Origin: Deltaproteobacteria bacterium
GTDB taxonomy: Bacteria; Desulfobacterota; DSM-4660; Desulfatiglandales; Desulfatiglandaceae
Assembly (NCBI GenBank): GCA_021163815.1
Contig: JAGGTJ010000025.1
Span: 5,821 to 69,820 of the forward strand
Reading direction: 5' to 3'
Length of the DNA stretch: 64,000 nucleotides
Both the position numbers and the translations under genes were made by a program. Positions 53,242 to 64,000 of this stretch are shown in pieces. The notes beneath the pieces are model-generated. The model was not told the origin of the DNA and did no database searches. It saw only the letters and a program-made list of their open reading frames with translations. Position 1 is the first letter of the stretch. Every line of letters begins with the position of its first letter.

Positions 53242-55014
53242 ATGGCGCATGAAAAAAACACCCCCAAGACCGTATATGGAATTCCTGCTTCTCCGGGTAT
53301 AGTAATAGGCAAGGCTCATGTGGTTGACAGATCAAAGGTCAAGGTGATGTACCATTACCTTATAAGTGATGATCTGGTGGATCAGGAGGTTGCCCGTTTC
53401 AGGGAGGCAGTGGAAAAGGCAAAAGAGCAGCTTACAACCTTGAAAGACCGCCTGCCCGATTACGTAAAGGATCATGCGTTTATACTGGAAAGCCATCGCA
53501 TGATCCTGAAAGACAGCATGGTTTATAATGCTACCATAAAACACATTACTGAAGACAAGATAAATGCTGAGTGGGCGCTCAAGAAGACCTTGCTCGACAT
53601 CAAGAACGTATTCCAGGAGATTGATGATGAATACATCAGTAACAGGATCAGTGATGTGGGAAATGTTGTTGAAAGGATATTGAGAAACCTGTCAGGTAAA
53701 CAGCAGGAAAGTCTTCTGGATCTTAAAGAACGGGTAATCATTGTTGCCCATGACATCTCTCCTGAAGATGCTACAGAACTCAATACAAGCAAGGTAATGG
53801 GTTTTGTCTCTAATGTTGGTGCAAAAACCTCTCATACGGCTATTATAGCTCAGGCCCTGGGTTTGCCTGCTGTTATGGGCCTTGGCAATATTACGGATAT
53901 CGTAGAAGAAGGATGTCTGTTGATTGTCGATGGTAATACCGGCGAGGTTGTCATACAGCCTGATGATGATGCCATCATTTATTACCATGAAAGACAGATT
54001 CAAAGAGAAAGGTATCGCTCTTCCATAATCAGAACAAGTTATCTGCCTGCCAAAACCCTGGATGGTTACGAAATTGCTGTTATGGCCAATACGGAATTTG
54101 CAGGTGAAACAGAGGCGGTAAAAGAAAATGGGGGAGCAGGCATAGGCCTTTACAGAACTGAATTTCTTTATCTTAAAAGCAACGGGTTCCCTTCTGAAGA
54201 GGAGCTGTTCAATGATTATAAACAGGTGGCTGAAAAAATAGCTCCTGACCCTGTTATTATAAGGACATTGGATCTTGGCGGAGACAAGTTCCTGTCATAT
54301 TCCAATAAAAAGGAGGCGAACCCTGCCCTTGGGCTTAGGGCCATACGGTTATCGCTGAAAAATCCCCAGGTATTCAAGGTGCAGATCAGGGCCATTCTGC
54401 GTGCAAGTGCATACGGTAATGTCTGGCTGATGTTTCCCATGATATCAGGGCTTAGTGAAATCCAGGCGGCAAACAGAATACTGACGGAGGTCAAAAAAGA
54501 TCTCGATGATGCGGGGATGGACTATAAGAGGGATATAAGGGTCGGAATTATGATCGAAATCCCGTCTGCCGTTGCCATAGCAGACATACTTGCTCATCAA
54601 ATAGATTTTTTCAGCATCGGAACCAACGACCTGATCCAGTATGCCCTTGCTGTTGACAGGACAAATGAGGATGTTGCCTATCTGTATAAGCCTTTCCATC
54701 CTGCAATTTTAAGGATGATAAGGCAGGTAATAACAGCGGCCGACAAGGCCGGTATAGAGGTTTCGTTATGCGGGGCCATGGCAGGGGAACCGTGCTGTGT
54801 TCCCATCCTTATTGGCGCTGGTATGAAAAGACTAAGTGTAAATATACAGTCTGTTCCCCTTATAAAAAAGATCATACGTTCGATTTCCCTTAAAGATGCA
54901 GAGAGCTGCTTTGAAGATATTATGAAGCTGACAACGGCAAATCAGGTTGAGGCATACATAAAGGCTTTTATGAAGGACCTGTTGCCGGAACTGGGAGAAA
55001 ACGCATTTATATGA
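53242..55014 (+). CDS. ptsI: phosphoenolpyruvate--protein phosphotransferase (Enzyme I)
   Basis: 590 aa; GAKTSHTAIIAQALGLPAV, GLYRTEFLY, FFSIGTNDLIQY. Confidence 0.93.
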   Translation: MAHEKNTPKTVYGIPASPGIVIGKAHVVDRSKVKVMYHYLISDDLVDQEVARFREAVEKAKEQLTTLKDRLPDYVKDHAFILESHRMILKDSMVYNATIKHITEDKINAEWALKKTLLDIKNVFQEIDDEYISNRISDVGNVVERILRNLSGKQQESLLDLKERVIIVAHDISPEDATELNTSKVMGFVSNVGAKTSHTAIIAQALGLPAVMGLGNITDIVEEGCLLIVDGNTGEVVIQPDDDAIIYYHERQIQRERYRSSIIRTSYLPAKTLDGYEIAVMANTEFAGETEAVKENGGAGIGLYRTEFLYLKSNGFPSEEELFNDYKQVAEKIAPDPVIIRTLDLGGDKFLSYSNKKEANPALGLRAIRLSLKNPQVFKVQIRAILRASAYGNVWLMFPMISGLSEIQAANRILTEVKKDLDDAGMDYKRDIRVGIMIEIPSAVAIADILAHQIDFFSIGTNDLIQYALAVDRTNEDVAYLYKPFHPAILRMIRQVITAADKAGIEVSLCGAMAGEPCCVPILIGAGMKRLSVNIQSVPLIKKIIRSISLKDAESCFEDIMKLTTANQVEAYIKAFMKDLLPELGENAFI

Positions 55015-55466
55015 ACAAAAAGATTGTATGCTCGAACAAAAAGGCGAAATATGACTATTTCCTCGATGATTTTTATGAAGCAGGGATGGTGTTGCTGGGA
55101 CCGGAGGTTAAATCCCTAAGGTTGGGGCAGGCAAATCTTACAGACAGCTATGCAAAGATCAAAAAGGGCGAGGTTTTTTTGTACAATATGCATATCAAGC
55201 CCTATGTAAATGCCCGGCATATAAACCTGGATCCTGTAAGGCCAAGAAAACTGCTTTTGAACAAGAGGGAGATAAAACGCCTTATTGGGAAAACAGAGGG
55301 AAAGGGCTATACCCTTATACCAACAAAGGTTTATTTTTTAAACGGTTGGGCAAAGGTGGAAATTGCCTTGGCAAGAGGCAAACGCAAGTACGACAAGCGA
55401 CAGGCCCTTAAAGAAAAAGAGATGAAAAAGGATATGAAAGAGGCCCAAAAAAGGTATAAGTATTGA
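55011..55466 (+). CDS. smpB: SsrA-binding protein SmpB
   Basis: 151 aa; NKKAKYDYFLDDFYEAGMVLLGPEVKSLR, RPRKLLLNKREI. Confidence 0.93.
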   Translation: MNKKIVCSNKKAKYDYFLDDFYEAGMVLLGPEVKSLRLGQANLTDSYAKIKKGEVFLYNMHIKPYVNARHINLDPVRPRKLLLNKREIKRLIGKTEGKGYTLIPTKVYFLNGWAKVEIALARGKRKYDKRQALKEKEMKKDMKEAQKRYKY

Positions 55467-55549
55467 CATTTTCATCGTAAATGATTATTTTATAGCAGTA
55501 AATTGCCCCGATTGTCTGTTTTTATCATCTTTGATGGTAATAACTGTAA

Positions 55550-55903
55550 GGGGGCGAAACGGTTTCGACGGAGATAGTTGAAGTTCAGATTGCATACCGA
55601 GGTTCCATCATCTCGTAAAACAGGTGGATATAAACACAATCGCAGACGATTATTCGTATGCTCTGGCCGCTTAGGCCAGCGTCCTTTTAGTTTTTACCTG
55701 CGGAACTAAAAAGGGCGTCGATCAGCAGGGTAGCTTGGCCGTATTGCCTGTGTGACGGTCAGGTGAACTTTATCACAGGATAGTCCGTTGTTGTAGGTGC
55801 TCGATACCTACGACAGGGATGAAACAATAAATATCGAGCTAAGTATGTAGATGTCTGAATGGAATGTTTCCGGACGGGGGTTCGACTCCCCCCGCCTCCA
55901 CCA
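55550..55903 (+). ncRNA. ssrA: tmRNA (ssrA), tag ORF ADDYSYALAA-stop at 55642-55674
   Basis: 5' GGGGGCGAAACGGTTTCGACGG pairs with 3' CGCCTCC-A-CCA. T-arm-like GGACGGGGGTTCGACTCCCCCCGCC. Resume codon GCA and in-frame GCA GAC GAT TAT TCG TAT GCT CTG GCC GCT TAG. Directly follows smpB. Confidence 0.93.
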
Positions 55904-55918
55904 TTTGAAAAAAGACAA

Positions 55919-55961
55919 CCCGTCTCTCGGCATATCTTTTCCGGGAAGACGGTTTTTTTTA
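55919..55961 (+). terminator. rho-independent terminator of ssrA
   Basis: cccgtctctcgg-catatctttt-ccgggaagacgg hairpin followed by T8. Confidence 0.7.
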
Positions 55962-56295
55962 TTTTCCCCCCCCTTGTTTTCAGATGGCTTGCGCCCATTT
56001 CACATCTTTTTAAAGTACCTCTTTGCTCCTCGTTTCTTCTCCACCTTTCTTCCTCTGTTTGTCCCCAGATTCGCTGGCATTGACAATCACCCCACGATCC
56101 TGCCCCTACACACCCGGTGATATATTCGGGCGGGATAAGTCTTTACCGGCATGTGTTTGTGCCGGGTTATGCCCGGGAGAGCATGGTTTCGGCATGGCTC
56201 TATATTGGAGACACGGCAGTCAGGCGTGGGACGAAGCTCATCCAGTCCGGTATTTGGTCGGAATAAACACCGATCACCATAATTTAGAAAAACAT

Positions 56296-56324
56296 TTGAC
56301 AGCAACTGTCACTAACTGTATATT
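56296..56324 (+). promoter_or_regulatory. sigma-70 promoter with overlapping palindromic operator candidate
   Basis: TTGACA (56296-56301), 17-nt spacer, TATATT (56319-56324). A perfect inverted repeat TGACAG-caa-CTGTCA (56297-56311) overlaps the -35. The site is 62 nt upstream of the HTH gene. Confidence 0.6.
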
Positions 56325-56385
56325 AGATGGGTGTTATGAGGTATCGTGCGAAAACTTTTGCCTTGCGGTCAGAGAGGTATACCTG

Positions 56386-56592
56386 ATGGATGAAAAACCA
56401 GGCGCTGTCATGACCATTGAAGAGCTATCCGCCTATCTGAAGATTCCGAAGTCAACGCTCTATAAGCTCGTTCGGGAAGGCAAGGTCCCTTCCCAGAAGG
56501 TGGGCCGGCACTGGCGTTTCCGGAAGGAGGCCATCGATCGATGGTTGGACGAGACGCAAGCCGAAGAGCCGGATACAAAGGGAGAACAGTAA
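56386..56592 (+). CDS. excisionase-family (MerR-like) helix-turn-helix DNA-binding protein
   Basis: 68 aa from an ATG with a GAGAGG RBS; MTIEELSAYLKIPKSTLYKLVREGKVPSQKVGRHWRFRKEAIDRWL is the classic excisionase-type HTH signature. Confidence 0.75.
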   Translation: MDEKPGAVMTIEELSAYLKIPKSTLYKLVREGKVPSQKVGRHWRFRKEAIDRWLDETQAEEPDTKGEQ

Positions 56593-57068
56593 TGGCTGAG
56601 CCTCTCGCTGATCAGGTCATGCGGAAAATCAAACAGGCTGCCGAGCTTTACCATAGGCTTATGCTGGTCGTAGCTCCGGCAGGAGCGGGAAAAACTACTG
56701 CGCTCACATACGTGAAAGAACGCATAGGCGCACCACTGGTCAACGTCAACCTGGAGCTGTCACGCCGCATGCTTGAACTAACCGAGCGCCAGAGGGCGTT
56801 ACAGCTTCCCCGACTGTTAAGGGAGATTGTAGATGATGCTGCCAGTGAAGTGGTGTTGCTCGACAATTTAGAGATTTTATTTGACGTATCCCTGCAGCAA
56901 GACCCTCTTCGGCTTCTTCAGGGACTTTCTCGTAACAAAACGGTGGTTGCTGCCTGGAACGGTTCCATTGACAAAGACCACATGACCTATGCCGTACCGG
57001 ATCATCCTGAGTTCCGCCGCTATCTGGTCCGCGATTTTCTGGTGGCAAGTCCGGAGGTAACGACATGA
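56592..57068 (+). CDS. brxF: BrxF-like small P-loop ATPase (BREX type 3)
   Basis: 158 aa; TAATG-coupled to the HTH gene; Walker [11 protein letters not shown], Walker [12 protein letters not shown], then [22 protein letters not shown]. Assignment is from remembered family features and gene context. Confidence 0.65.
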
Positions 57069-57102
57069 AGCTGATAGAAGAGATTACAAGGGGGCATACG
57101 CG

Positions 57103-60100
57103 ATGAAATACGGTGACCTGATTCAGTTTGAACCCATTGAGTCCGTGGTCCAACTGCGGGATGCCATTGATGCAACTGCCGCCCGGCAGCTTGTCGAGAC
57201 CTATGTCATTTCCAAAGAGATGGCAGAGAAGCTGGTGGGTTTGGTTATTCCCCAGCTGCAGTTTGAGCAGCCCACCGACAACAAAGGACTTCTGGTGGTT
57301 GGTAATTACGGCACTGGTAAATCCCACCTCATGTCGGTGATCTCCTCTCTTGCGGAACATCCCGACCTTACCGCCAGTCTCAGCAATGCCGACGTAGCGA
57401 ATGCTGCTCAAAAAATCAGCGGCCGGTTCAAGGTGGTCCGTACCGAGATCGGTGCCACCACCATGTCCCTGCGGGACATTCTTGTTGCCGAACTGGAAGA
57501 GCATCTGGCGGCGATGGGTGTGAGCTACAGCTTTCCATCCGCCGACCAGGTATCCAACAACAAACGTTCCTTCGAGGAGATGATGGCCGCCTTCCACCAG
57601 GAATTTCCGGACCATGGTCTACTCCTCGTGGTGGATGAGCTTCTCGACTATCTGCGCACCCGTAAAGACCAGGAGCTTATTCTGGACCTGAACTTCCTCC
57701 GTGAGATCGGCGAAGTTTGCAAGGACCTGCGTTTCCGCTTCATGGCCGGTGTCCAGGAAGCCATTTTCGACAGTCCCCGGTTCTCCTTTGTGGCCGACAG
57801 TATCCGCCGGGTGAAGGACCGCTTCGAGCAGATTCTCATCGCTCGCAAAGACGTCAAGTTCGTGGTGGCCGAGCGATTGCTCAAGAAAACCGGTGAGCAG
57901 CAGGCCAAAATACGCGAATACCTTACGCCCTTCGGCAAGTTCTACGGCCATATGAACGAGCGCATGGGCGAGTTCGTCCGTCTCTTCCCAGTGCATCCCG
58001 ATTACGTCGACACCTTTGAGAGGGTAACCGCGGTTGAAAAGCGCGAAGTGCTCAAGACCCTGTCCCTGGCCATGAAGAAGATGCTCGATCAGGATCTGCC
58101 AGACGACCGGCCGGGGCTCATCGCCTATGACACCTACTGGACTAATCTCCGAGAGAATCCATCCTTCCGGGCCGTGCCAGACATTAAGGCGGTCATCGAC
58201 TGCAGCCAGGTACTGGAGTCCCGCATACAGCAGGCCTTCACGCGTCCGGCTTACAGGCCCATGACGATCAGACTTATCCATGCCCTGTCTGTACATCGGC
58301 TTACTACAGGTGACATTTATGCCCCTCTGGGCGCGACAGCTGAGGAGCTTCGTGACGGGCTTTGCCTCTATCAACCGGGCATCGAGGAACTGGGAGGTGA
58401 TCCGGCCGACGACCTGCTATCCCAGGTAGAGACCGTCCTGCGCGAAATCCACAAAACGGTCAGCGGACAATTTATCTCTTCGAATCCGGACAGCCGGCAA
58501 TTCTATCTGGACCTGAAAAAAATCGACGACTTCGACGCGTTGATCGAAAAACGCGCCGAAAGCCTCGATTCCTCCCAACTGGACCGCTACTACTACGAGG
58601 CCCTGAAACGGGTCATGGAATGTACTGACCAGACTTATGTCACCGGCTACAAGATCTGGCAGCACGAGCTGGAATGGTTGGAGCGCAAGGCTGCACGCCA
58701 GGGATACCTTTTCTTTGGCGCGCCCAACGAGCGATCCACTGCTGTACCGCCGCGGGACTTCTACCTCTATTTCATTCAACCCTTCGATCCACCGCACTTC
58801 AAGGACGAGAAGAAGCCCGACGAGCTGTTCCTCAGGCTTCGCCTAAGTGCGGAGTACGATGTGCGAAGTGCGCAAGAGAAGAACGCACCACGCACGGCGC
58901 ACCACGCACTCGATTTCAGGGAAACCCTGAAATCGTTTGCCGCAGCCCTGGACCTGGCATCCACCTCATCTGGGCAGGCAAAAGCAACCTACGAATCCAA
59001 GTCATCCCATTTTCTGCGGGACCTGGTGCAGTGGCTGCAAAAGCACATGACAGATGCATTCGAGGTCACCTATCAGGGGCGCACAAAGTCACTTACCGAG
59101 TGGGCCAAGGGTAAGTCGATCCGTGAGCTTTCCGGCATCAGCTCCCATGAACGCATCAATTTTCGTGACCTGATTAACACAATTGCCGGGATCTGCCTGG
59201 GAGCTCACTTCCAGGATCAGGCACCTGAGTATCCCTTCTTCTCGGTCCTCATCACCGGGACCAACCGGGAACAGGCCGCCCAGGACGCCTTGCGCGCCAT
59301 TGCCGGTCAGAACCGAACCAAGCAGGCCACCGCTGTATTGGATGCGCTGGAACTACTCGACGGTGAACGGCTTGATCCATACCAGTCGAAGTACGCCAAG
59401 CACATCATCGGCCTGCTCAAGAAGAAAGGGCATGGCCAAGTGGTCAATCGCTCCGAGCTAATCCAGGACGACAAGGGTGTGGAATACATGGATAAAGACC
59501 GGTATCGGCTGGAGCCCGAGTGGGTGATTGTTGTCCTGGCCGCGCTGGTCTACTCCGGTGATCTGGTGCTCGCCATCCCGGGCAAGAAGTACGACGCCAC
59601 CGGCCTTCCACAACTGGCCGGGATCGGCATAGATGAACTGACGCAGTTCAACCATATCGAACGACCCAAGGACTGGAACCTGCCAGCTCTGAAAGCGGTA
59701 TTCGAACTGCTCGGTCTCACACCAGGCATGGCGCAACTGGTCACCCAGGGCAAGGACGAACCGGTCCAGCAGTTGCAAAAGGCCATCTCAGAATCGGTAG
59801 AGAAGCTGGTGCTCCTGCAGCAAACCCTACAAAGCGGACTACTTTTCTGGGGTCGGAACTTACTGACTGAGGAAGAAGCTCAAAAGCTCCGTACCCGGCT
59901 CGACGAGACCAAGACTTTCCTGGAGTCGCTCCAGGCCTATACCTCGCCTGGCAAGCTCAAAAACTTCCGCTACGACGCCCAGGAGGTGACATCCCATCGG
60001 GACGGAATCAATTCCCTTACAGAAATCGAATCTCTCCAGGAATTGGTAGCCGATCTCGGTTCCACTGCCTCCTTCCTGTCCACCGCCGAGGCGGTACTGC

Positions 60101-60888
60101 CCGCGGAACACGAGTGGGTAGATGAGATGAAGAAGGTGCGTGACGAGGTACTCATCCAACTTGGCGATCCAGACAAACGCAGTGCAGCCACCTTCCGCCA
60201 GCAGACTCAGCGCAAGCTCGCAGATCTCAAGAAGACCTACGTGCAGACCTACCTGGCATTGCATGCCAAGGCTCGGCTGGGCGTGAACGAAGACAAGCGC
60301 AAGACCGAACTCATGGGTGACGAACGGCTCAAGGTGTTGCAAAAGCTATCCACTATCGAACTGATGCCGCGTCAGCATCTGACCGACTTTCAAAACCGTC
60401 TTGCCGGTTTGAAGAGCTGCTTCGCGCTCACCGAGCAGGAATTGGATGCAACGCCTGTGTGCCCGCACTGCAACTACAAACCCAGCGCGGAACCACCGGC
60501 TGTACCGGCGGGCACTGTGTTGGATGATCTCGACGAGGAGCTGGACAAGCTGGTGGAGAACTGGACTCAGACATTGCTGACCAACCTGGAGGACCCGACC
60601 ACCAAGGGCAACCTGGACCTGCTCAAGCCCGAGCCCAAGAAGCTCGTGAACGGCTTCATCAAAAAGCGGGCCCTGCCGGACGAAATCAATCAGGATTTCA
60701 TCCATGCCCTTGGCGAGGTGCTTTCCGGGCTCCAGAAAGTTCCGGTCAAGATCGCAGATCTGCGTGCGGCCCTGCTCTCCGGCGGCTCACCGGTAACACC
60801 GGCGGAGATGAAGAAACGGTTCGAGGAATATCTGGACGAACTCACCAAGGGCAAGGAGCCCGGCAAGGTGAGGATTGTGCTGGAGTGA
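57103..60888 (+). CDS. brxC: BrxC/PglY-like large P-loop ATPase (BREX)
   Basis: 1261 aa; N-terminus [19 protein letters not shown], Walker [15 protein letters not shown], Walker [14 protein letters not shown]-terminal CPHCNYKP zinc-ribbon-like element; size and position fit BrxC. Confidence 0.7.
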
Positions 60889-60892
60889 ACAG

Positions 60893-62785
60893 ATGACGCA
60901 GGATGAACTGATAGAACTGCTCAACGCTCATGAATGGCGTGATGTCGAATTCAAGGAAGCCCAGCGTGAGGTTCCACGCAGTGCTTACGAGACTGTTTCT
61001 GCGTTTGCAAATACTGAAGGCGGTCATCTTGTTTTTGGTGTCAGGAAAAATGGACAAGACTTCGAGATGGTCGGAGTCCTTGATGTCGATAAAGTTCAAA
61101 ATGATTTTCTGACTACGCTACGGCAGCCTGACAAGTTGAGTGTCATAGTGAATGTCCGGGAAGAATTATACAAACAAGGAGAGTCAGATCTGCTCGTCTT
61201 CTATGTGCCTGAAGCCCACCGTTCGGAAAAGCCCGTTTTCCTTAACAGAGATATCCGCCGTTCATATGTTCGTAGTGGCGGCTGCGATGTCCGCTGCTCG
61301 GACAATGAGCGAAACCGATTTCTTATGGATGCGGCTGCCGAGCGTTATGACGGCCAGCCTGTCGATCTCGACCTGAATACGGCATTCGATCCGGAGAGCA
61401 TTAATTGGTATCGAGCGGTCTATGAGGGAAGGCCAGGGAACCGTTCTCACGCAACACTATCCGACACGGATTTCCTCAAGGAAATGGGTTTGCTTGTTGA
61501 GCAACACGGCCAGATATCGCCATCGCGCGCAGCGATCTTTCTCTTCGGATCAAATGCGACCCTCCGGCAACTCCTTCCACGGCCGGTAGTGGACTGCCAG
61601 CGGTTCTCGTTGCCTCGCGACAGGGCGGATGCCGGTGAGCGATGGATTGACCGTCTCGTTCTCGACGAAAATCTCATTCGCTCCTGGCAATCCCTTATCG
61701 ATTGGTACCAAAGATTCGCGGAGCGGCCGTTCCGGGTTGACCCGGCATCCTTGCAACGAGACGACGCGCCACCGGACTACCGCGCCTTTCGTGAATCAAT
61801 GGTCAACCTACTCATCCATCAGGATTATTCTGATCATTCCCGGAAAGCGGAGATCCGCCACTATACCGACCAGACCGTTTTCTGGAATCCCGGCGATGCC
61901 TTCGCTACTGATACAGACCTGCTTGAACCCGGCGAAAAGGAGGTGCGCAATCCCAGGATCGTGACCGCTTTCCGGCGCATCGGACTGAGCGAGAACGCTG
62001 GATGGGGATTGCGTGATGTCTTCCGCAACTGGCAGCAGTTGGGCCATGTTCCGCCCACTATCACCAACAACAAGGGGCGTAAGTGCTTTGAACTTGTCCT
62101 CAAAAAAGAAGAACTCCTGTCGGAACATCAGGTTCTTTTCCAGGCAAGCCTCGGTGTGCAACTCACCGACGAACAAGCAAGGGTGTTTGCCTTTGCCTGC
62201 CGGGAAAAGGCGATCACGCTTCCGCAGATCAAGGCCGTGACGGGTCTTGCCGGACCGGATGCCGTGGAGCTTGCCGATACCCTGGTCACAAAAGTCCTCT
62301 TCAGGACCGTCGAGGACGGCAGAAAGTATGCCCTGGCGGAGCACCTGGAGGAACGGTTCCGTCGAACTGACCAAGCCACTGACCAACCAGATGCGCAGGC
62401 TGGGGACTTGATCACTGCACAAGTTCAGCCCGAGAAGCCCGACTTGTCCACTGCACAAGTCGAAGACCAAGCGGGAGACTTGTCCACTGGACAAGTTCAT
62501 ACCTTGACAGAACTTTCCGAAACACACTGGAAAATCATAGAGTTATGCGATGTGCCCCGTCGCCTGGTCGAGATTCTGGAAGCTCTTGGCGTGACCAACC
62601 GGGGTTATTTCAAGGAACACCATCTCGATCCGCTGATTCAGTCCGGGATTGTGGCGATGACCAACCCGAAGAACCCCCGGGCATCGAACCAGAAATATGT
62701 GATTACCGAAGCGGGAGCCCAACTCAAAGCGCGCCGCATGTCTGAGGAAACCGACCGAAGCGAGGACGAGAATGGCGAAGTCTAA
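60893..62785 (+). CDS. AlbA_2 (Schlafen-like) / HATPase_c_4 / winged-helix putative DNA-binding protein
   Basis: 630 aa (ATG 60893, stop 62783-62785). N-terminus EWRDVEFKEAQREVPRSAYETVSAFANTEGGHLVFGV (AlbA_2). Middle NLLIHQDYSDHS...RNPRIVTAFRRIGLSENAGWGL (RecG-like HATPase_c_4). DLxTAQV 12-aa repeats. C-terminal wHTH-like tail KEHHLDPLIQSGIVAMTNPKNPRASNQKYVITEAG. Confidence 0.7.
   Translation: MTQDELIELLNAHEWRDVEFKEAQREVPRSAYETVSAFANTEGGHLVFGVRKNGQDFEMVGVLDVDKVQNDFLTTLRQPDKLSVIVNVREELYKQGESDLLVFYVPEAHRSEKPVFLNRDIRRSYVRSGGCDVRCSDNERNRFLMDAAAERYDGQPVDLDLNTAFDPESINWYRAVYEGRPGNRSHATLSDTDFLKEMGLLVEQHGQISPSRAAIFLFGSNATLRQLLPRPVVDCQRFSLPRDRADAGERWIDRLVLDENLIRSWQSLIDWYQRFAERPFRVDPASLQRDDAPPDYRAFRESMVNLLIHQDYSDHSRKAEIRHYTDQTVFWNPGDAFATDTDLLEPGEKEVRNPRIVTAFRRIGLSENAGWGLRDVFRNWQQLGHVPPTITNNKGRKCFELVLKKEELLSEHQVLFQASLGVQLTDEQARVFAFACREKAITLPQIKAVTGLAGPDAVELADTLVTKVLFRTVEDGRKYALAEHLEERFRRTDQATDQPDAQAGDLITAQVQPEKPDLSTAQVEDQAGDLSTGQVHTLTELSETHWKIIELCDVPRRLVEILEALGVTNRGYFKEHHLDPLIQSGIVAMTNPKNPRASNQKYVITEAGAQLKARRMSEETDRSEDENGEV
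62405..62496 (+). repeat. three in-frame 36-nt tandem repeats, each with an internal palindrome
   Basis: gacttgatcactgcacaagt (62405), gacttgtccactgcacaagt (62441), gacttgtccactggacaagt (62477). Each contains ACTTGT-N7-ACAAGT and encodes DLITAQV / DLSTAQV / DLSTGQV. Confidence 0.85.
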
Positions 62786-64000
62786 GAAAGATGCCGAACA
62801 GCAGCAGTTGTTCAAGACCAGGCTGGTTCCCGGAAAAACGGGATCAGGCAAGCTTTTTGATGAAGAGATAGTCATGGACGACGGCCCGGTAGAGTGTCTC
62901 GGTATGACCTTCGAGAACGACGAAAAACGCCGGGAGTATTTCCTGGAGAAGCTTCGCGAGAAACTCAAGGACCCGGAGTTTCGCAAGATCGAGGGGTTCC
63001 CGATTGGCGAGGATGAGGACATCCTGGCCCTGTCTGATCCGCCGTACTACACCGCCTGCCCGAATCCGTTTATCGAGGATTTCATTAAGCAGTACGGCAA
63101 GCCATATGACCCGGAGACGGACGATTACCGGCGGGAACCGTTTGCTGCGGATGTGAGTGAGGGGAAATACGATCCACTATATAAAATCCATGCATATCCA
63201 ACAAAGGTCCCATTTAGAGCCATTATCAGATACCTCCTTCATTTCACGCAGCCAGGTGATCTGGTTTTCGATGGATTTGCAGGTACAGGTATGACTGGAG
63301 TTGCTGCTGAGATGTGTGGGAATCCTGAAGAAGTTAGCTCCATTGTGGATCCCAGCGATAATCTTCTCAAAGGCCAAAGGTATGCCATACTTTGTGATTT
63401 ATCCACAAATGCTACGCACATTGCGTCCAACTACGTAAGGCACATAGATGCCAGTGATTTCAAAAGACATTTCTCAGCTTATATTGCGAGATGTGAGGCC
63501 AAGATTAAGTGGCTATATCAAACACAAGATCCATCAACAGGACAAATTGGCATCATTAACTATGTTGTATGGAGCGAAGTGTTTTTCTGTGAACACTGTT
63601 CCCAAGAATATTCATATTGGGACTCTGCTGTCACTTACAAACCAGGAGATACTATCGGAAAAGTAGAGAATAAGCAGGTATGTCCTCACTGCGGCGCTGA
63701 AGCTACTAGGCGAACCGTTGAAAATGCAGTTGAAACTGTTTTTGATCCGTTTACTGGCACTACTATTGCTCAGAAGAAACATGTGCCTGTACTTATCAAC
63801 TATAAGATCGGTCAATCGCGACGGGAAAAGATTCCCGATGACTTCGACCTCACACTTTTGAAAAAAATCTCTGATACGCTACCAGAGATAACTGATTCAA
63901 TAAAAACGGCACCTTTGATGCTCAAAGAAGGTGTTGATAAATGGGGTGATCAACAGCGCGAGTATCATCTTGGGATCACTCATGCTCATCATTTTTTTTC
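62772..64000 (+). CDS. pglXI: PglXI-like beta-class N6/N4 DNA methyltransferase, N-terminal about 409 aa (continues beyond the window)
   Basis: Hand translation from ATG 62772 is open to the window end: MAKSKKDAEQQQLF...LALSDPPYYTACPNPF (motif IV)...YPTKVPFRAIIRYLLHFTQPGDLVFDGFAGTGMTG (motif I)...CEHC...CPHCG. It overlaps the preceding gene by 14 nt. It is absent from the ORF track because no stop lies in the window. Confidence 0.65.
   Translation, partial: MAKSKKDAEQQQLFKTRLVPGKTGSGKLFDEEIVMDDGPVECLGMTFENDEKRREYFLEKLREKLKDPEFRKIEGFPIGEDEDILALSDPPYYTACPNPFIEDFIKQYGKPYDPETDDYRREPFAADVSEGKYDPLYKIHAYPTKVPFRAIIRYLLHFTQPGDLVFDGFAGTGMTGVAAEMCGNPEEVSSIVDPSDNLLKGQRYAILCDLSTNATHIASNYVRHIDASDFKRHFSAYIARCEAKIKWLYQTQDPSTGQIGIINYVVWSEVFFCEHCSQEYSYWDSAVTYKPGDTIGKVENKQVCPHCGAEATRRTVENAVETVFDPFTGTTIAQKKHVPVLINYKIGQSRREKIPDDFDLTLLKKISDTLPEITDSIKTAPLMLKEGVDKWGDQQREYHLGITHAHHFF

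What the first reader, a model, noticed from the sequence alone, without database searches (positions are those of the whole stretch)
60893..62785. Non-canonical gene wedged between brxC and pglXI: an AlbA_2/Schlafen-like, HATPase_c_4, wHTH protein
The published BREX type 3 order places pglXI directly after brxC. Here a 630-aa protein sits between them, starting 5 nt after the brxC stop and overlapping pglXI by 14 nt. It therefore appears to be co-transcribed and translationally coupled rather than a later independent insertion. This architecture is usually annotated only as a putative DNA-binding or ATP-binding protein and recurs inside restriction-modification loci without a demonstrated role. 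It could be a regulator, a sensor or an additional effector of the BREX module.
Basis: partly seen in the sequence, partly recalled or inferred. Interest (0 to 1): 0.65.

Follow-up and report, generated by a model that had tools for sequence, protein, structure and literature searches.

The report
Schlafen-ATPase accessory gene inside BREX-3
The gene between brxC and pglXI is real and encodes a Schlafen-nuclease/GHKL-ATPase/winged-helix protein, a kind of accessory module that 2025-2026 papers already report inside BREX loci and predict to be a backup, tRNA-cutting antiphage effector, so this is an ordinary new member of a known but functionally untested class.

Summary
A 630-aa ORF (60893-62785, +) starts 4 nt after the brxC stop and overlaps the pglXI start by 14 nt. 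Pfam supports SLFN_AlbA_2, HATPase_c_4 and Fic-like_C above the curated cut-offs. E14-x4-E19-x-K21, SAFAN and the GHKL Mg/ATP residues E301/N305 are invariant in 62 orthologues.

It is not an oddity. About 72 of the 80 GTDB type-3 BREX loci fetched could be evaluated. In these, the brxC-pglXI junction is a cargo slot. About 29 hold Schlafen-GHKL proteins of several divergent lineages, and about 12 have brxC abutting pglXI. The rest hold DUF1016 nucleases, OLD-family ATPases, Fic, HD, SIR2-HerA and others.

Three 2025-2026 papers already describe this architecture in BREX loci. The Schlafen-GHKL module was characterised in SLFN-pAgo, where ATP-driven oligomerisation licenses tRNA cleavage.

The best reading is a co-transcribed backup abortive-infection effector, possibly guarding BREX as PrrC guards EcoprrI. 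This is inferred, not shown.

New details found here:
- Every sampled orthologue of this lineage (62-86% identity) occupies this same slot.
- Deletion derivatives keep only the C-terminal winged helix, apparently under purifying selection.
- The lineage is enriched in BrxHII-less loci.
- The mammalian third catalytic Asp aligns to Lys52.

Interest is low to moderate.

The parts
60893..62785 (+). Gene X: 630-aa Schlafen-GHKL ATPase ('Schlatpase') protein with two winged-helix domains
60932..61294 (+). Schlafen/AlbA_2 domain (aa 14-134). It contains E14-x4-E19-x-K21 (nt 60932-60955) and S36-A-F-A-N40 (nt 60998-61012).
   Evidence: Pfam. The motifs are invariant in 62 orthologues. The profile matches SLFN5/8/14/11 catalytic regions and PDB 2kyy.
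61778..62077 (+). GHKL-type ATPase domain (PF13749, aa ~296-395). Motifs: N-box E301-x3-N305...H309-x-D311-Y312, N332-P-G334, R352-N353, G364..E367..G370-x-G372.
   Evidence: Pfam; PDB 3lmm match; invariance. E/N correspond by motif to RzAgo E314/N318.
62105..62347 (+). First winged helix (aa ~405-485), with no Pfam match
   Evidence: AF2 model secondary structure H-H-H-beta-beta with pLDDT 74-91 in this stretch only
62363..62515 (+). Disordered acidic linker with three copies of an ~11-13 aa 'DL(S/I)T(A/G)QV' repeat. Copy number is variable in orthologues.
62519..62722 (+). Second winged helix (Fic-like_C, aa ~543-610). This is the only part kept in the deletion derivatives.
60882..60885 (+). 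GGAG Shine-Dalgarno for X, inside the last codons of brxC
62762..62785 (+). 3' end of X. It carries the pglXI Shine-Dalgarno (GAGGA, 62762-62766) and the pglXI start (ATG 62772), giving a 14-nt overlap.
57103..60888 (+). brxC (type-3 BrxC/PglY, DUF6079), 1261 aa
62772..64000 (+). pglXI methyltransferase (cut by the window end; 949 aa in the near-identical contig L002)
56592..57068 (+). brxF. The likely start is ATG 56592, overlapping the upstream stop as TAATG.
56386..56592 (+). Small HTH_17 (excisionase/MerR-like, MAD1-like) gene, first in the operon. A promoter-like site lies at 56296-56324.
55550..55903 (+). tmRNA gene. The BREX island starts just after it.
   Evidence: GC shift

Best explanation
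Gene X is an accessory, co-transcribed 'Schlatpase-wHTH' defence module lodged in the variable cargo slot between brxC and pglXI of a type-3 BREX island.

Proposed mechanism (inferred by homology):
- The N-terminal Schlafen domain is a metal-dependent endoribonuclease that cuts tRNA.
- It is kept silent until ATP binding by the adjoining GHKL domain, together with a phage-dependent cue read through the C-terminal region (two winged helices joined by a repeat linker), drives an oligomeric rearrangement.
- That rearrangement pairs the Schlafen domains into an active nuclease.
- The result is translational arrest, that is abortive infection, as a second layer when BREX is bypassed or inhibited.
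- A plausible trigger logic is that of PrrC with EcoprrI. The module would sit on, or watch, the BREX machinery or its DNA substrate through wHTH2 and fire when that is perturbed.

Shown here: gene, junctions, domains, conserved catalytic and ATP-site motifs, slot variability, and fixed position of the lineage.

Inferred: RNase activity, tRNA as target, ATP-driven oligomerisation, the nature of the trigger, and any contact with BREX proteins.
For: Domains and motifs:
- Three Pfam domains score above their cut-offs.
- E14, E19, K21, SAFAN, E301, N305, H309, D311, NPG and the G-rich lid are invariant in 62 orthologues at 64-86% identity.
- A profile of the family matches the catalytic stretch of SLFN5, 8, 14 and 11, and also 2kyy, 3lmm and 4rgl.

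Precedents:
- In CbCash the catalytic centre is E17-D22-K24 plus Mg.
- In RzAgo the same SLFN + PF13749 pair binds ATP through E314/N318 and tetramerises. Paired SLFN domains then cut tRNA once a target is sensed.
- pSlfn proteins protect E. coli from phage by tRNA cleavage.

Accessory nature:
- Of the 80 GTDB BREX-3 loci fetched, about 72 could be evaluated. About 29 of these hold SLFN-GHKL proteins of several lineages, and about 12 hold nothing.
- The others hold stand-alone defence genes: DUF1016/YhcG nuclease, OLD ABC-TOPRIM, Fic, HD, UvrD, SIR2+HerA and an MmeI-like gene.
- The next junction in this same locus holds a CBASS pair.

Published statements of the same association and prediction.

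Co-expression: Shine-Dalgarno sites and overlaps are present. Terminator-like sites across the scanned region are no more frequent than in shuffled sequence.
Against: - No stand-alone Schlafen-GHKL-wHTH protein has been tested in any paper I could find. Taboada et al. saw defence for only 2 of 7 pSlfn genes and do not say that a HisKinase-HTH form worked.
- The third catalytic acid of mammalian Schlafens (SLFN5 D233, 'GVxD') aligns to K52 here (K44, Q11, E5, D2 among 62 orthologues). Most other slot lineages keep Asp there, so nuclease activity is not assured.
- The AF2 model was poor for the Schlafen and GHKL parts (mean pLDDT 56), so the active site could not be inspected.
- Some features hint at a BREX-linked role beyond an autonomous toxin. 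This lineage has a fixed position in all 11 sampled non-redundant orthologue loci. The wHTH2-only derivatives appear to be under purifying selection. The lineage is enriched in BrxHII-less loci.
Confidence: 0.6

Rival explanations
1. X is mainly a transcriptional regulator of the BREX-3 operon (the old COG2865 reading). The winged helices would bind an operator, and the Schlafen and GHKL parts would serve as ligand- or nucleic-acid-sensing domains rather than as a nuclease.
For: X has two winged-helix domains. Deletion derivatives that keep only linker + wHTH2 stay intact, with dN/dS about 0.3 in L020, L023 and L065. K52 replaces the mammalian third catalytic acid. Some mammalian Schlafens lack catalytic residues and have non-nuclease roles (Introduction).
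Against: - The E-x4-E-x-K and ATP-site residues are invariant.
- The same slot is otherwise filled by effectors, not regulators.
- The operon already starts with a conserved small HTH_17 gene, found upstream of brxF in about 40 of the loci, or with a WYL protein in Roseicitreum.
- At least 12 loci work with an empty slot.
Confidence: 0.15
2. In this lineage X is an integrated working part of a BREX-3 variant rather than an add-on. It could be an ATP-dependent DNA- or RNA-binding subunit that docks on BrxC/PglXI through wHTH2 and partly replaces the BrxHII helicase.
For: - All 11 sampled non-redundant loci with orthologues at 62-86% identity (window, L013, L031, L038, L085, L086, L087, L089-L092) have X in exactly this slot.
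- X and BrxC identities fall together: 86/86, 76/82, 74/80, 74/77, 66/69 and 62/66%.
- BrxHII is absent or only a remnant in 9 of 11 orthologue loci and in all 5 deletion derivatives. Among other loci with PglZ in view, 7 of 27 lack it. Naive Fisher p = 5e-5.
Against: - The window's own lineage and L089 have both X and BrxHII.
- The association rests on about 3-4 independent events. One BrxC clade supplies 10 of the loci.
- The plasmid homologues at 44-46% identity coexist with the helicase.
- Most BREX-3 loci lack this lineage (3 of 80 GTDB loci).
Confidence: 0.15
3. X is a selfish toxin-like passenger, or a decaying remnant, with no benefit to the host. It would be kept only because its 3' end carries the pglXI ribosome-binding site and start codon.
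For: The Schlafen-GHKL part was lost in at least three independent deletions that spare the 3' end. The pglXI Shine-Dalgarno and ATG lie inside X.
Against: The full-length ORF is intact and 64-86% conserved in 61 aligned orthologues from many phyla, with invariant catalytic motifs. Only about 25 nt at the 3' end would be needed for pglXI translation, yet 75-147 aa are kept with dN/dS 0.1-0.6.
Confidence: 0.05

Closest known systems
[quoted passage not shown]
   Same: Same three-part architecture and same placement inside or next to core BREX genes. Both papers predict a backup abortive RNase role.
   Different: Both papers are computational on this point and give no slot-level picture. Added here: the brxC-pglXI junction acts as a cargo slot; one lineage is fixed at this slot; wHTH2-only deletion derivatives exist; K52 sits at the mammalian third-acid position; there is a second winged helix and a variable repeat linker.
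'Schlatpase' supradomain (SLFN PF04326 + GHKL PF13749) of SLFN-pAgo RzAgo (bioRxiv 10.64898/2026.05.29.728809)
   Same: Same two Pfam families in the same order; E-x4-(D/E)-x-K; SAFAN; E-x3-N Mg/ATP residues. PADLOC's pAgo model matches X at aa 29-344. The paper notes that most Schlatpase proteins are small and carry a C-terminal HTH.
   Different: X has no Argonaute sensor. Its presumed sensor is two winged helices. ATP binding, tetramerisation and tRNA cleavage are untested for X.
Prokaryotic Schlafen defence proteins pSlfn (RorSlfn5, DUF262-Slfn; bioRxiv 10.1101/2025.07.24.666596) and CRISPR-associated Cash
   Same: Schlafen nuclease with the E-x4-(E/D)-x-K motif acting as a phage-triggered tRNase. 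HisKinase-HTH fusions make up 19.2% of 5,930 pSlfn proteins.
   Different: The sensors differ: an Ig-like domain binding a T5 tail chaperone, or Csx15 binding cA4. The HisKinase-HTH class itself has no reported phenotype.
PrrC-EcoprrI and RloC (anticodon nucleases embedded in type I R-M operons; established knowledge, and discussed for GHKL-HEPN fusions in PMC3710099)
   Same: An NTPase-regulated RNase gene wedged between the genes of a methylation-based defence system. This is the guard or backup logic.
   Different: Unrelated folds (ABC ATPase + HEPN). No evidence that X binds BREX proteins or responds to anti-BREX factors.
Mammalian SLFN5/11/13/14 RNase domains
   Same: Profile-level similarity over the catalytic strand and the SAFANTEGG box.
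   Different: X has a single lobe only. The third acid (SLFN5 D233) aligns to K52. The C-terminal domains differ.
PDB 3lmm (583-aa uncharacterised Schlafen-GHKL-wHTH protein), 2kyy (AlbA_2 domain) and 4rgl (Fic C-terminal wHTH)
   Same: Sequence matches to the GHKL, Schlafen and wHTH2 parts respectively.
   Different: These are structural-genomics entries with no assigned function. Identity to X is low.

Membership tests
Schlafen/AlbA_2 nuclease domain (PF04326), prokaryotic type | Profile match above the curated threshold | tested here: met
   55.4 bits against a cut-off of 25.3, aa 14-134
Schlafen/AlbA_2 nuclease domain (PF04326), prokaryotic type | Catalytic E-x4-(E/D)-x-K motif | tested here: met
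   E14-WRDV-E19-F-K21, invariant in 62/62. It corresponds to CbCash E17/D22/K24.
Schlafen/AlbA_2 nuclease domain (PF04326), prokaryotic type | SAFAN 'Schlafen box' followed by GG and a hydrophobic strand | tested here: met
   S36-A-F-A-N40-T-E-G-G-H-L-V-F-G-V, with F38, A39, N40, T41, G43 and G44 invariant
Mammalian-type Schlafen three-carboxylate site | Third acidic residue two positions after 'GV' (SLFN5 D233; the SLFN13 D248 and SLFN11 D252 equivalents are from my own knowledge) | tested here: not met
   It aligns to K52, with K44, Q11, E5 and D2 among 62 orthologues. Most other slot lineages have D here. D17, D56/E58 and D66 are nearby conserved acids that might substitute, but this is untested.
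Schlafen tRNase effectors | Phage-triggered cleavage of tRNA | not testable with these tools
   Needs biochemistry or RNA-seq
GHKL ATPase, PF13749 branch ('Schlatpase' partner) | Profile match, with the domain placed directly after the Schlafen domain | tested here: met
   40.8 bits against a cut-off of 26, aa 318-395. 3lmm matches over aa 297-394.
GHKL ATPase, PF13749 branch ('Schlatpase' partner) | N-box Glu/Asn that hold Mg and the gamma-phosphate (RzAgo E314/N318), and a glycine-rich lid | tested here: met
   E301 and N305 are invariant. G364, E367, G370 and G372 are invariant. The correspondence is by motif, not by structure.
GHKL ATPase, PF13749 branch ('Schlatpase' partner) | ATP binding, hydrolysis and ATP-driven oligomerisation | not testable with these tools
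   The AF2 monomer model was of low confidence in this region
BREX-embedded Schlafen-HisK-wHTH accessory effectors (PMC12839542) | Schlafen + minimal histidine-kinase-like ATPase + wHTH, encoded adjacent to or within core BREX genes | tested here: met
Core component of type-3 BREX | Present in essentially all type-3 loci | tested here: not met
   About 29 of about 72 evaluable loci have any Schlafen-GHKL gene in the slot. Only 3 of the 80 loci fetched have an orthologue of X. About 12 have brxC directly followed by pglXI.
PrrC-like guard of a methylation-based defence system | Physical masking by the R-M/BREX complex and activation by a phage anti-restriction factor | not testable with these tools
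   Only the genomic analogy is available
BrxR-type (WYL) BREX regulators | WYL/WCX domains with an N-terminal wHTH, encoded at the head of the operon | tested here: not met
   No WYL match. X lies mid-operon. The head of the operon is an HTH_17 gene.

The most novel reading that the evidence does not exclude
In this lineage the repeat linker plus C-terminal winged helix (wHTH2) would be a BREX-facing adaptor that works on its own. It would dock on BrxC/PglXI or on BREX-site DNA, or tune pglXI expression. In the full-length protein it would couple firing of the Schlafen-GHKL nuclease to the state of BREX. That would make X a true guard subunit of a mostly helicase-less BREX-3 variant rather than an interchangeable passenger.
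Probability: 0.15. Interest if true: 0.65.

Novelty: new member of a known kind. Interest (0 to 1): 0.3.

Why it matters
How BREX stops phage is still unresolved. Accessory effectors embedded in BREX loci are a current explanation for residual or layered defence. The Schlafen-GHKL-wHTH class is reported as the commonest prokaryotic Schlafen architecture, yet no stand-alone member has a demonstrated trigger or phenotype.

This locus adds a clean natural series:
- full-length X with BrxHII;
- X without BrxHII;
- wHTH2-only deletion derivatives;
- an empty slot.

Two cultured plasmid-borne relatives (Roseomonas mucosa AD1 and Roseicitreum antarcticum pRA04) could be used to test whether the module is autonomous or wired to BREX.

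As a discovery in itself it is incremental, because the association and the predicted role are already in print.

Tried and rejected
- AF2 on a 62-sequence alignment gave mean pLDDT 56. The Schlafen and GHKL parts were below 50. I therefore ran no fold search and used only the two confident winged-helix segments.
- NCBIfam has no model for X.
- PADLOC matches X only through the Schlafen-GHKL part of its pAgo and Aga models.
- I looked for a recombination breakpoint in BrxC that would explain cargo exchange, using 100-aa blocks against 14 loci. There was no clear mosaic. L005 is closest along the whole length, including the last block.
- A DNA-level tandem repeat search of the linker found nothing. 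The repeat is visible only in protein.
- Promoter and terminator scans gave counts at the chance level.
- The text held for the NAR paper's supplements contains no 'Schlafen' entries, so its per-subtype counts could not be retrieved.
- GC content does not set X apart from brxC. The island is 52-58% GC, against about 43% for the host part of the window (first 55 kb).
- I rejected the idea that D17 compensates for K52, because lineages that keep the Asp also have D17.
Full report
**1. What is in the sequence**

The ORF list gives 60875..62785 (+) from a TTG. Orthologues all begin MTQDEL, which places the true start at ATG 60893 and gives 630 aa.

- The brxC stop is TGA 60886-60888.
- Four bases separate it from the ATG, and GGAG lies at 60882-60885.
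- X ends at TAA 62783-62785.
- The pglXI ATG is at 62772, after GAGGA at 62762-62766. This gives a 14-nt overlap.

Upstream, a small HTH_17 gene (ATG 56386) ends in TAATG, which is also the brxF start at 56592. A strong promoter-like site lies at 56296-56324 (11 of 12 consensus positions). Terminator-like sites across the scanned 55400-64000 stretch are no more frequent than in shuffled sequence.

The order is therefore tmRNA (55550-55903), HTH_17, brxF, brxC, X, pglXI. It looks like one operon on an island of 52-58% GC, against about 43% GC for the host part of the window (first 55 kb).

A contig that is 99.93% identical to the window over 5,440 nt (L002) extends the locus. After pglXI come a YopA-like gene, a CBASS cyclase with a 2TM effector, and then brxHII.

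**2. What the protein is**

Pfam gives three domains, all above the gathering scores:
- SLFN_AlbA_2 at aa 14-134;
- HATPase_c_4 at aa 318-395;
- Fic-like_C at aa 559-605.

PDB sequence and profile searches hit 2kyy (AlbA_2 domain), 3lmm (a 583-aa uncharacterised protein, matched over the GHKL part), 4rgl (Fic C-terminal winged helix) and the catalytic stretch of SLFN5, 8, 14 and 11.

I aligned X with 61 orthologues at 64-86% identity. The following residues are invariant:
- E14, E19 and K21 (E-x4-E-x-K);
- F38, A39 and N40 of SAFAN;
- E301, N305, H309, D311 and Y312;
- N332-P-G334;
- R352-N353;
- G364, E367, G370 and G372.

E-x4-(D/E)-x-K is the catalytic centre solved in CbCash (E17, D22, K24 and Mg). 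It is also the motif used to define prokaryotic Schlafens. E-x3-N matches by motif the Mg/ATP residues E314/N318 of RzAgo.

The AF2 model was poor overall (pLDDT 56). It was confident only for two winged helices, at about aa 405-485 and 540-605, separated by a disordered linker. That linker holds three copies of a 'DL(S/I)T(A/G)QV' repeat. Orthologues have from 2 to about 13 copies.

One caveat applies. The third acid of mammalian Schlafens (SLFN5 D233 in 'GVHD') aligns to K52. That position reads K44, Q11, E5 and D2 in the family, while most other Schlafen lineages in the same slot keep Asp.

**3. The surroundings: a cargo slot, not an anomaly**

BrxC is extremely conserved. The 120 best database clusters are 84-100% identical across many phyla.

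A scan of GTDB species genomes with BrxC found at least 521 relatives. I examined the best 80 loci. I located BrxC, X and PglXI by tblastn and extracted the ORFs between them. I then annotated cluster representatives with Pfam.

| Occupant of the brxC-pglXI junction | Loci (of about 72 evaluable) |
|---|---|
| Nothing: brxC directly followed by pglXI | about 12 |
| SLFN_AlbA_2 + HATPase_c_4 protein | about 29 |
| Only a 75-147 aa winged-helix ORF homologous to the tail of X | 5 |
| DUF1016/YhcG PD-(D/E)XK nuclease | about 10 |
| Other (see below) | remainder |

- The Schlafen-GHKL proteins fall into several lineages: 74-86% identical to X in 3 loci, 44-50% in 5, and 22-29% in the rest. Three of these loci pair an 872-aa ABC ATPase with the Schlafen-GHKL gene.
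- The 'other' cargo includes OLD-family ABC-TOPRIM, Fic, HD, UvrD, Metallophos + SbcC-like + SIR2 + HerA, an MmeI-like enzyme, AAA_13 and a MORC-like ATPase.
- Many unrelated cargo genes also begin about 0-13 nt after brxC.
- The loci whose BrxC is closest to the window's (L005 at 90%, L006 at 89%, L011 at 87%) carry a distant Schlafen lineage or nothing.
- On a BrxC distance tree the cargo types are interleaved.

Tight junctions are therefore a property of the slot, not evidence about the age of this gene.

**4. The lineage of X**

Every orthologue I looked up lies between brxC and pglXI of a type-3 BREX locus. The set is P0002, P0061, P0107, P0115, P0012, P0024, P0043 and P0101 at 62-86% identity, plus L031 and L038. 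P0002 lies on the same contig as GTDB locus L013.

- Identity of X and of BrxC to the window fall together: 86/86, 76/82, 74/80, 74/77, 66/69 and 62/66%.
- Two plasmids of cultured bacteria carry a 44-46% homologue in the same slot. RefSeq names it 'RNA-binding domain-containing protein'.

The five mini-ORFs are deletion derivatives.
- L018 keeps MTQDELxxLL fused in frame to the linker and wHTH2.
- L020, L023 and L065 share one junction, starting in the last helix of wHTH1.
- L039 keeps 75 aa.
- All five nest inside an X-bearing BrxC clade.
- dN/dS is 0.28-0.57 among L020, L023 and L065, and 0.10-0.31 for the other close pairs. The numbers are small, but they suggest that wHTH2 alone is kept by selection.

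BrxHII is absent, or reduced to a 200-nt remnant, in 9 of 11 orthologue loci and in all 5 derivatives. Among other loci with PglZ in view, 7 of 27 lack it. The naive Fisher p is 5e-5. However, one clade supplies 10 of these loci, so only about 3-4 independent events underlie the association. The window itself and L089 have both genes.

**5. Literature**

[quoted passage not shown] They predict backup abortive effectors.
- The Cash paper (PMC13462974) reports a cluster of Schlafen-ATPase-DNA-binding proteins tightly linked to BREX. It leaves their activation open.
- Taboada et al. show that prokaryotic Schlafens are antiphage tRNases. HisKinase-HTH fusions are 19.2% of 5,930 such proteins, and 69.6% lie within 10 kb of a known defence gene.
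- Kuzmenko et al. name the SLFN + PF13749 pair 'Schlatpase' (58.6% of 103,533 prokaryotic Schlafen proteins, most of them small and carrying a C-terminal HTH). [quoted passage not shown] This pairs single-lobe Schlafen domains into a SLFN11-like nuclease that cuts tRNA after target sensing.

**6. Mechanism and rivals**

The best-supported reading is an accessory Schlatpase-wHTH effector co-expressed with BREX. It would be silent until a phage-dependent cue allows ATP-dependent assembly and tRNA cleavage. A PrrC-like guard arrangement is an attractive but untested trigger.

Three rivals remain:
- an operon regulator, weakened by the conserved catalytic motifs and by the separate HTH_17 or WYL genes at the operon head;
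- an integrated subunit of a helicase-less BREX-3 variant, supported only by the fixed position, the wHTH2 derivatives and the BrxHII correlation;
- a useless passenger, contradicted by the conservation.

**7. Verdict**

The 'non-canonical' framing is wrong, and the class is already described. The gene is a new member of a known, functionally untested kind.

The slot-level census, the lineage-specific fixed position, the wHTH2-only derivatives, the BrxHII correlation and the K52 substitution are modest additions. They could guide experiments.

Noticed in passing
window 55011-55903 and onward: SmpB and the tmRNA gene sit immediately before the BREX island. GC rises from about 43% (host) to 52-58% (island), as expected for an island integrated at ssrA. 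No integrase was seen between the tmRNA gene and the HTH_17 gene.
   Followed up: partly
window 56386-56592: A roughly 68-aa HTH_17 (excisionase/MerR-like, MAD1-like) gene overlaps the brxF start as TAATG, with a strong promoter-like site at 56296-56324. Homologues lie just upstream of brxF in about 40 of the fetched BREX-3 loci. It is a candidate operon regulator. I found no 'excisionase' or 'MerR' mention in the NAR 2026 paper.
   Followed up: partly
L002 7070-10024 (contig 99.93% identical to the window, beyond the window end): The pglXI-brxHII junction of this same locus holds a YopA-like gene (apparently split in two) and a CBASS cyclase + 2TM effector pair. The locus therefore has at least two cargo slots.
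   Followed up: partly
L018 13758-14198; L020 13812-14126; L023 13733-14137; L065 13733-14158; L039 14663-14890: Mini-ORFs between brxC and pglXI are in-frame deletion derivatives of X that keep only linker + wHTH2. There were at least three independent events. dN/dS is about 0.1-0.6.
   Followed up: yes
L013, L031, L038, L085-L087, L090-L092 and the five deletion-derivative loci: Loci with X orthologues or X-deletion derivatives mostly lack the BrxHII helicase, with diverse replacements. L090 and L091 share an unannotated 300-328 aa gene in its place. The association is phylogenetically clustered.
   Followed up: partly
window 62363-62515 (aa ~491-541): The linker between the two winged helices is built from an ~11-13 aa repeat, 'PDL(S/P/V)TxQV'. 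Its copy number ranges from 2 to about 13 among orthologues (linker length 43-167 aa). No DNA-level tandem repeat was detected.
   Followed up: partly
L092 15998-17752: One locus carries a second, distant Schlafen-GHKL gene (584 aa, 25% identical to X) between pglXI and pglZ, in addition to the X orthologue.
   Followed up: no
L017 5076-8851, L072 4427-8208, L081 4672-8447: A conserved two-gene cargo: an 872-aa ABC ATPase (AAA_21/AAA_15) followed by a 390-aa Schlafen-GHKL protein without a wHTH. This suggests an ABC-ATPase-partnered variant.
   Followed up: no
window 57103-60888 (brxC): Type-3 BrxC is unusually conserved. The 120 best database clusters are 84-100% identical and come from many phyla, including Thermodesulfobacteriota, Actinomycetota, Pseudomonadota and Aminicenantes. 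This implies rapid horizontal spread. PglXI is only 47-62% identical in the same loci.
   Followed up: partly
phage records MK448442.1, MK448606.1 and others: Streptococcus satellite phages (Javan series) encode Schlafen-GHKL homologues (25-29% identity) near one end of the element.
   Followed up: no
window 63000-63900: GC drops to 42-46% inside pglXI, in the region of the reported insert/TRD subdomain. This may reflect exchange of the specificity region.
   Followed up: no
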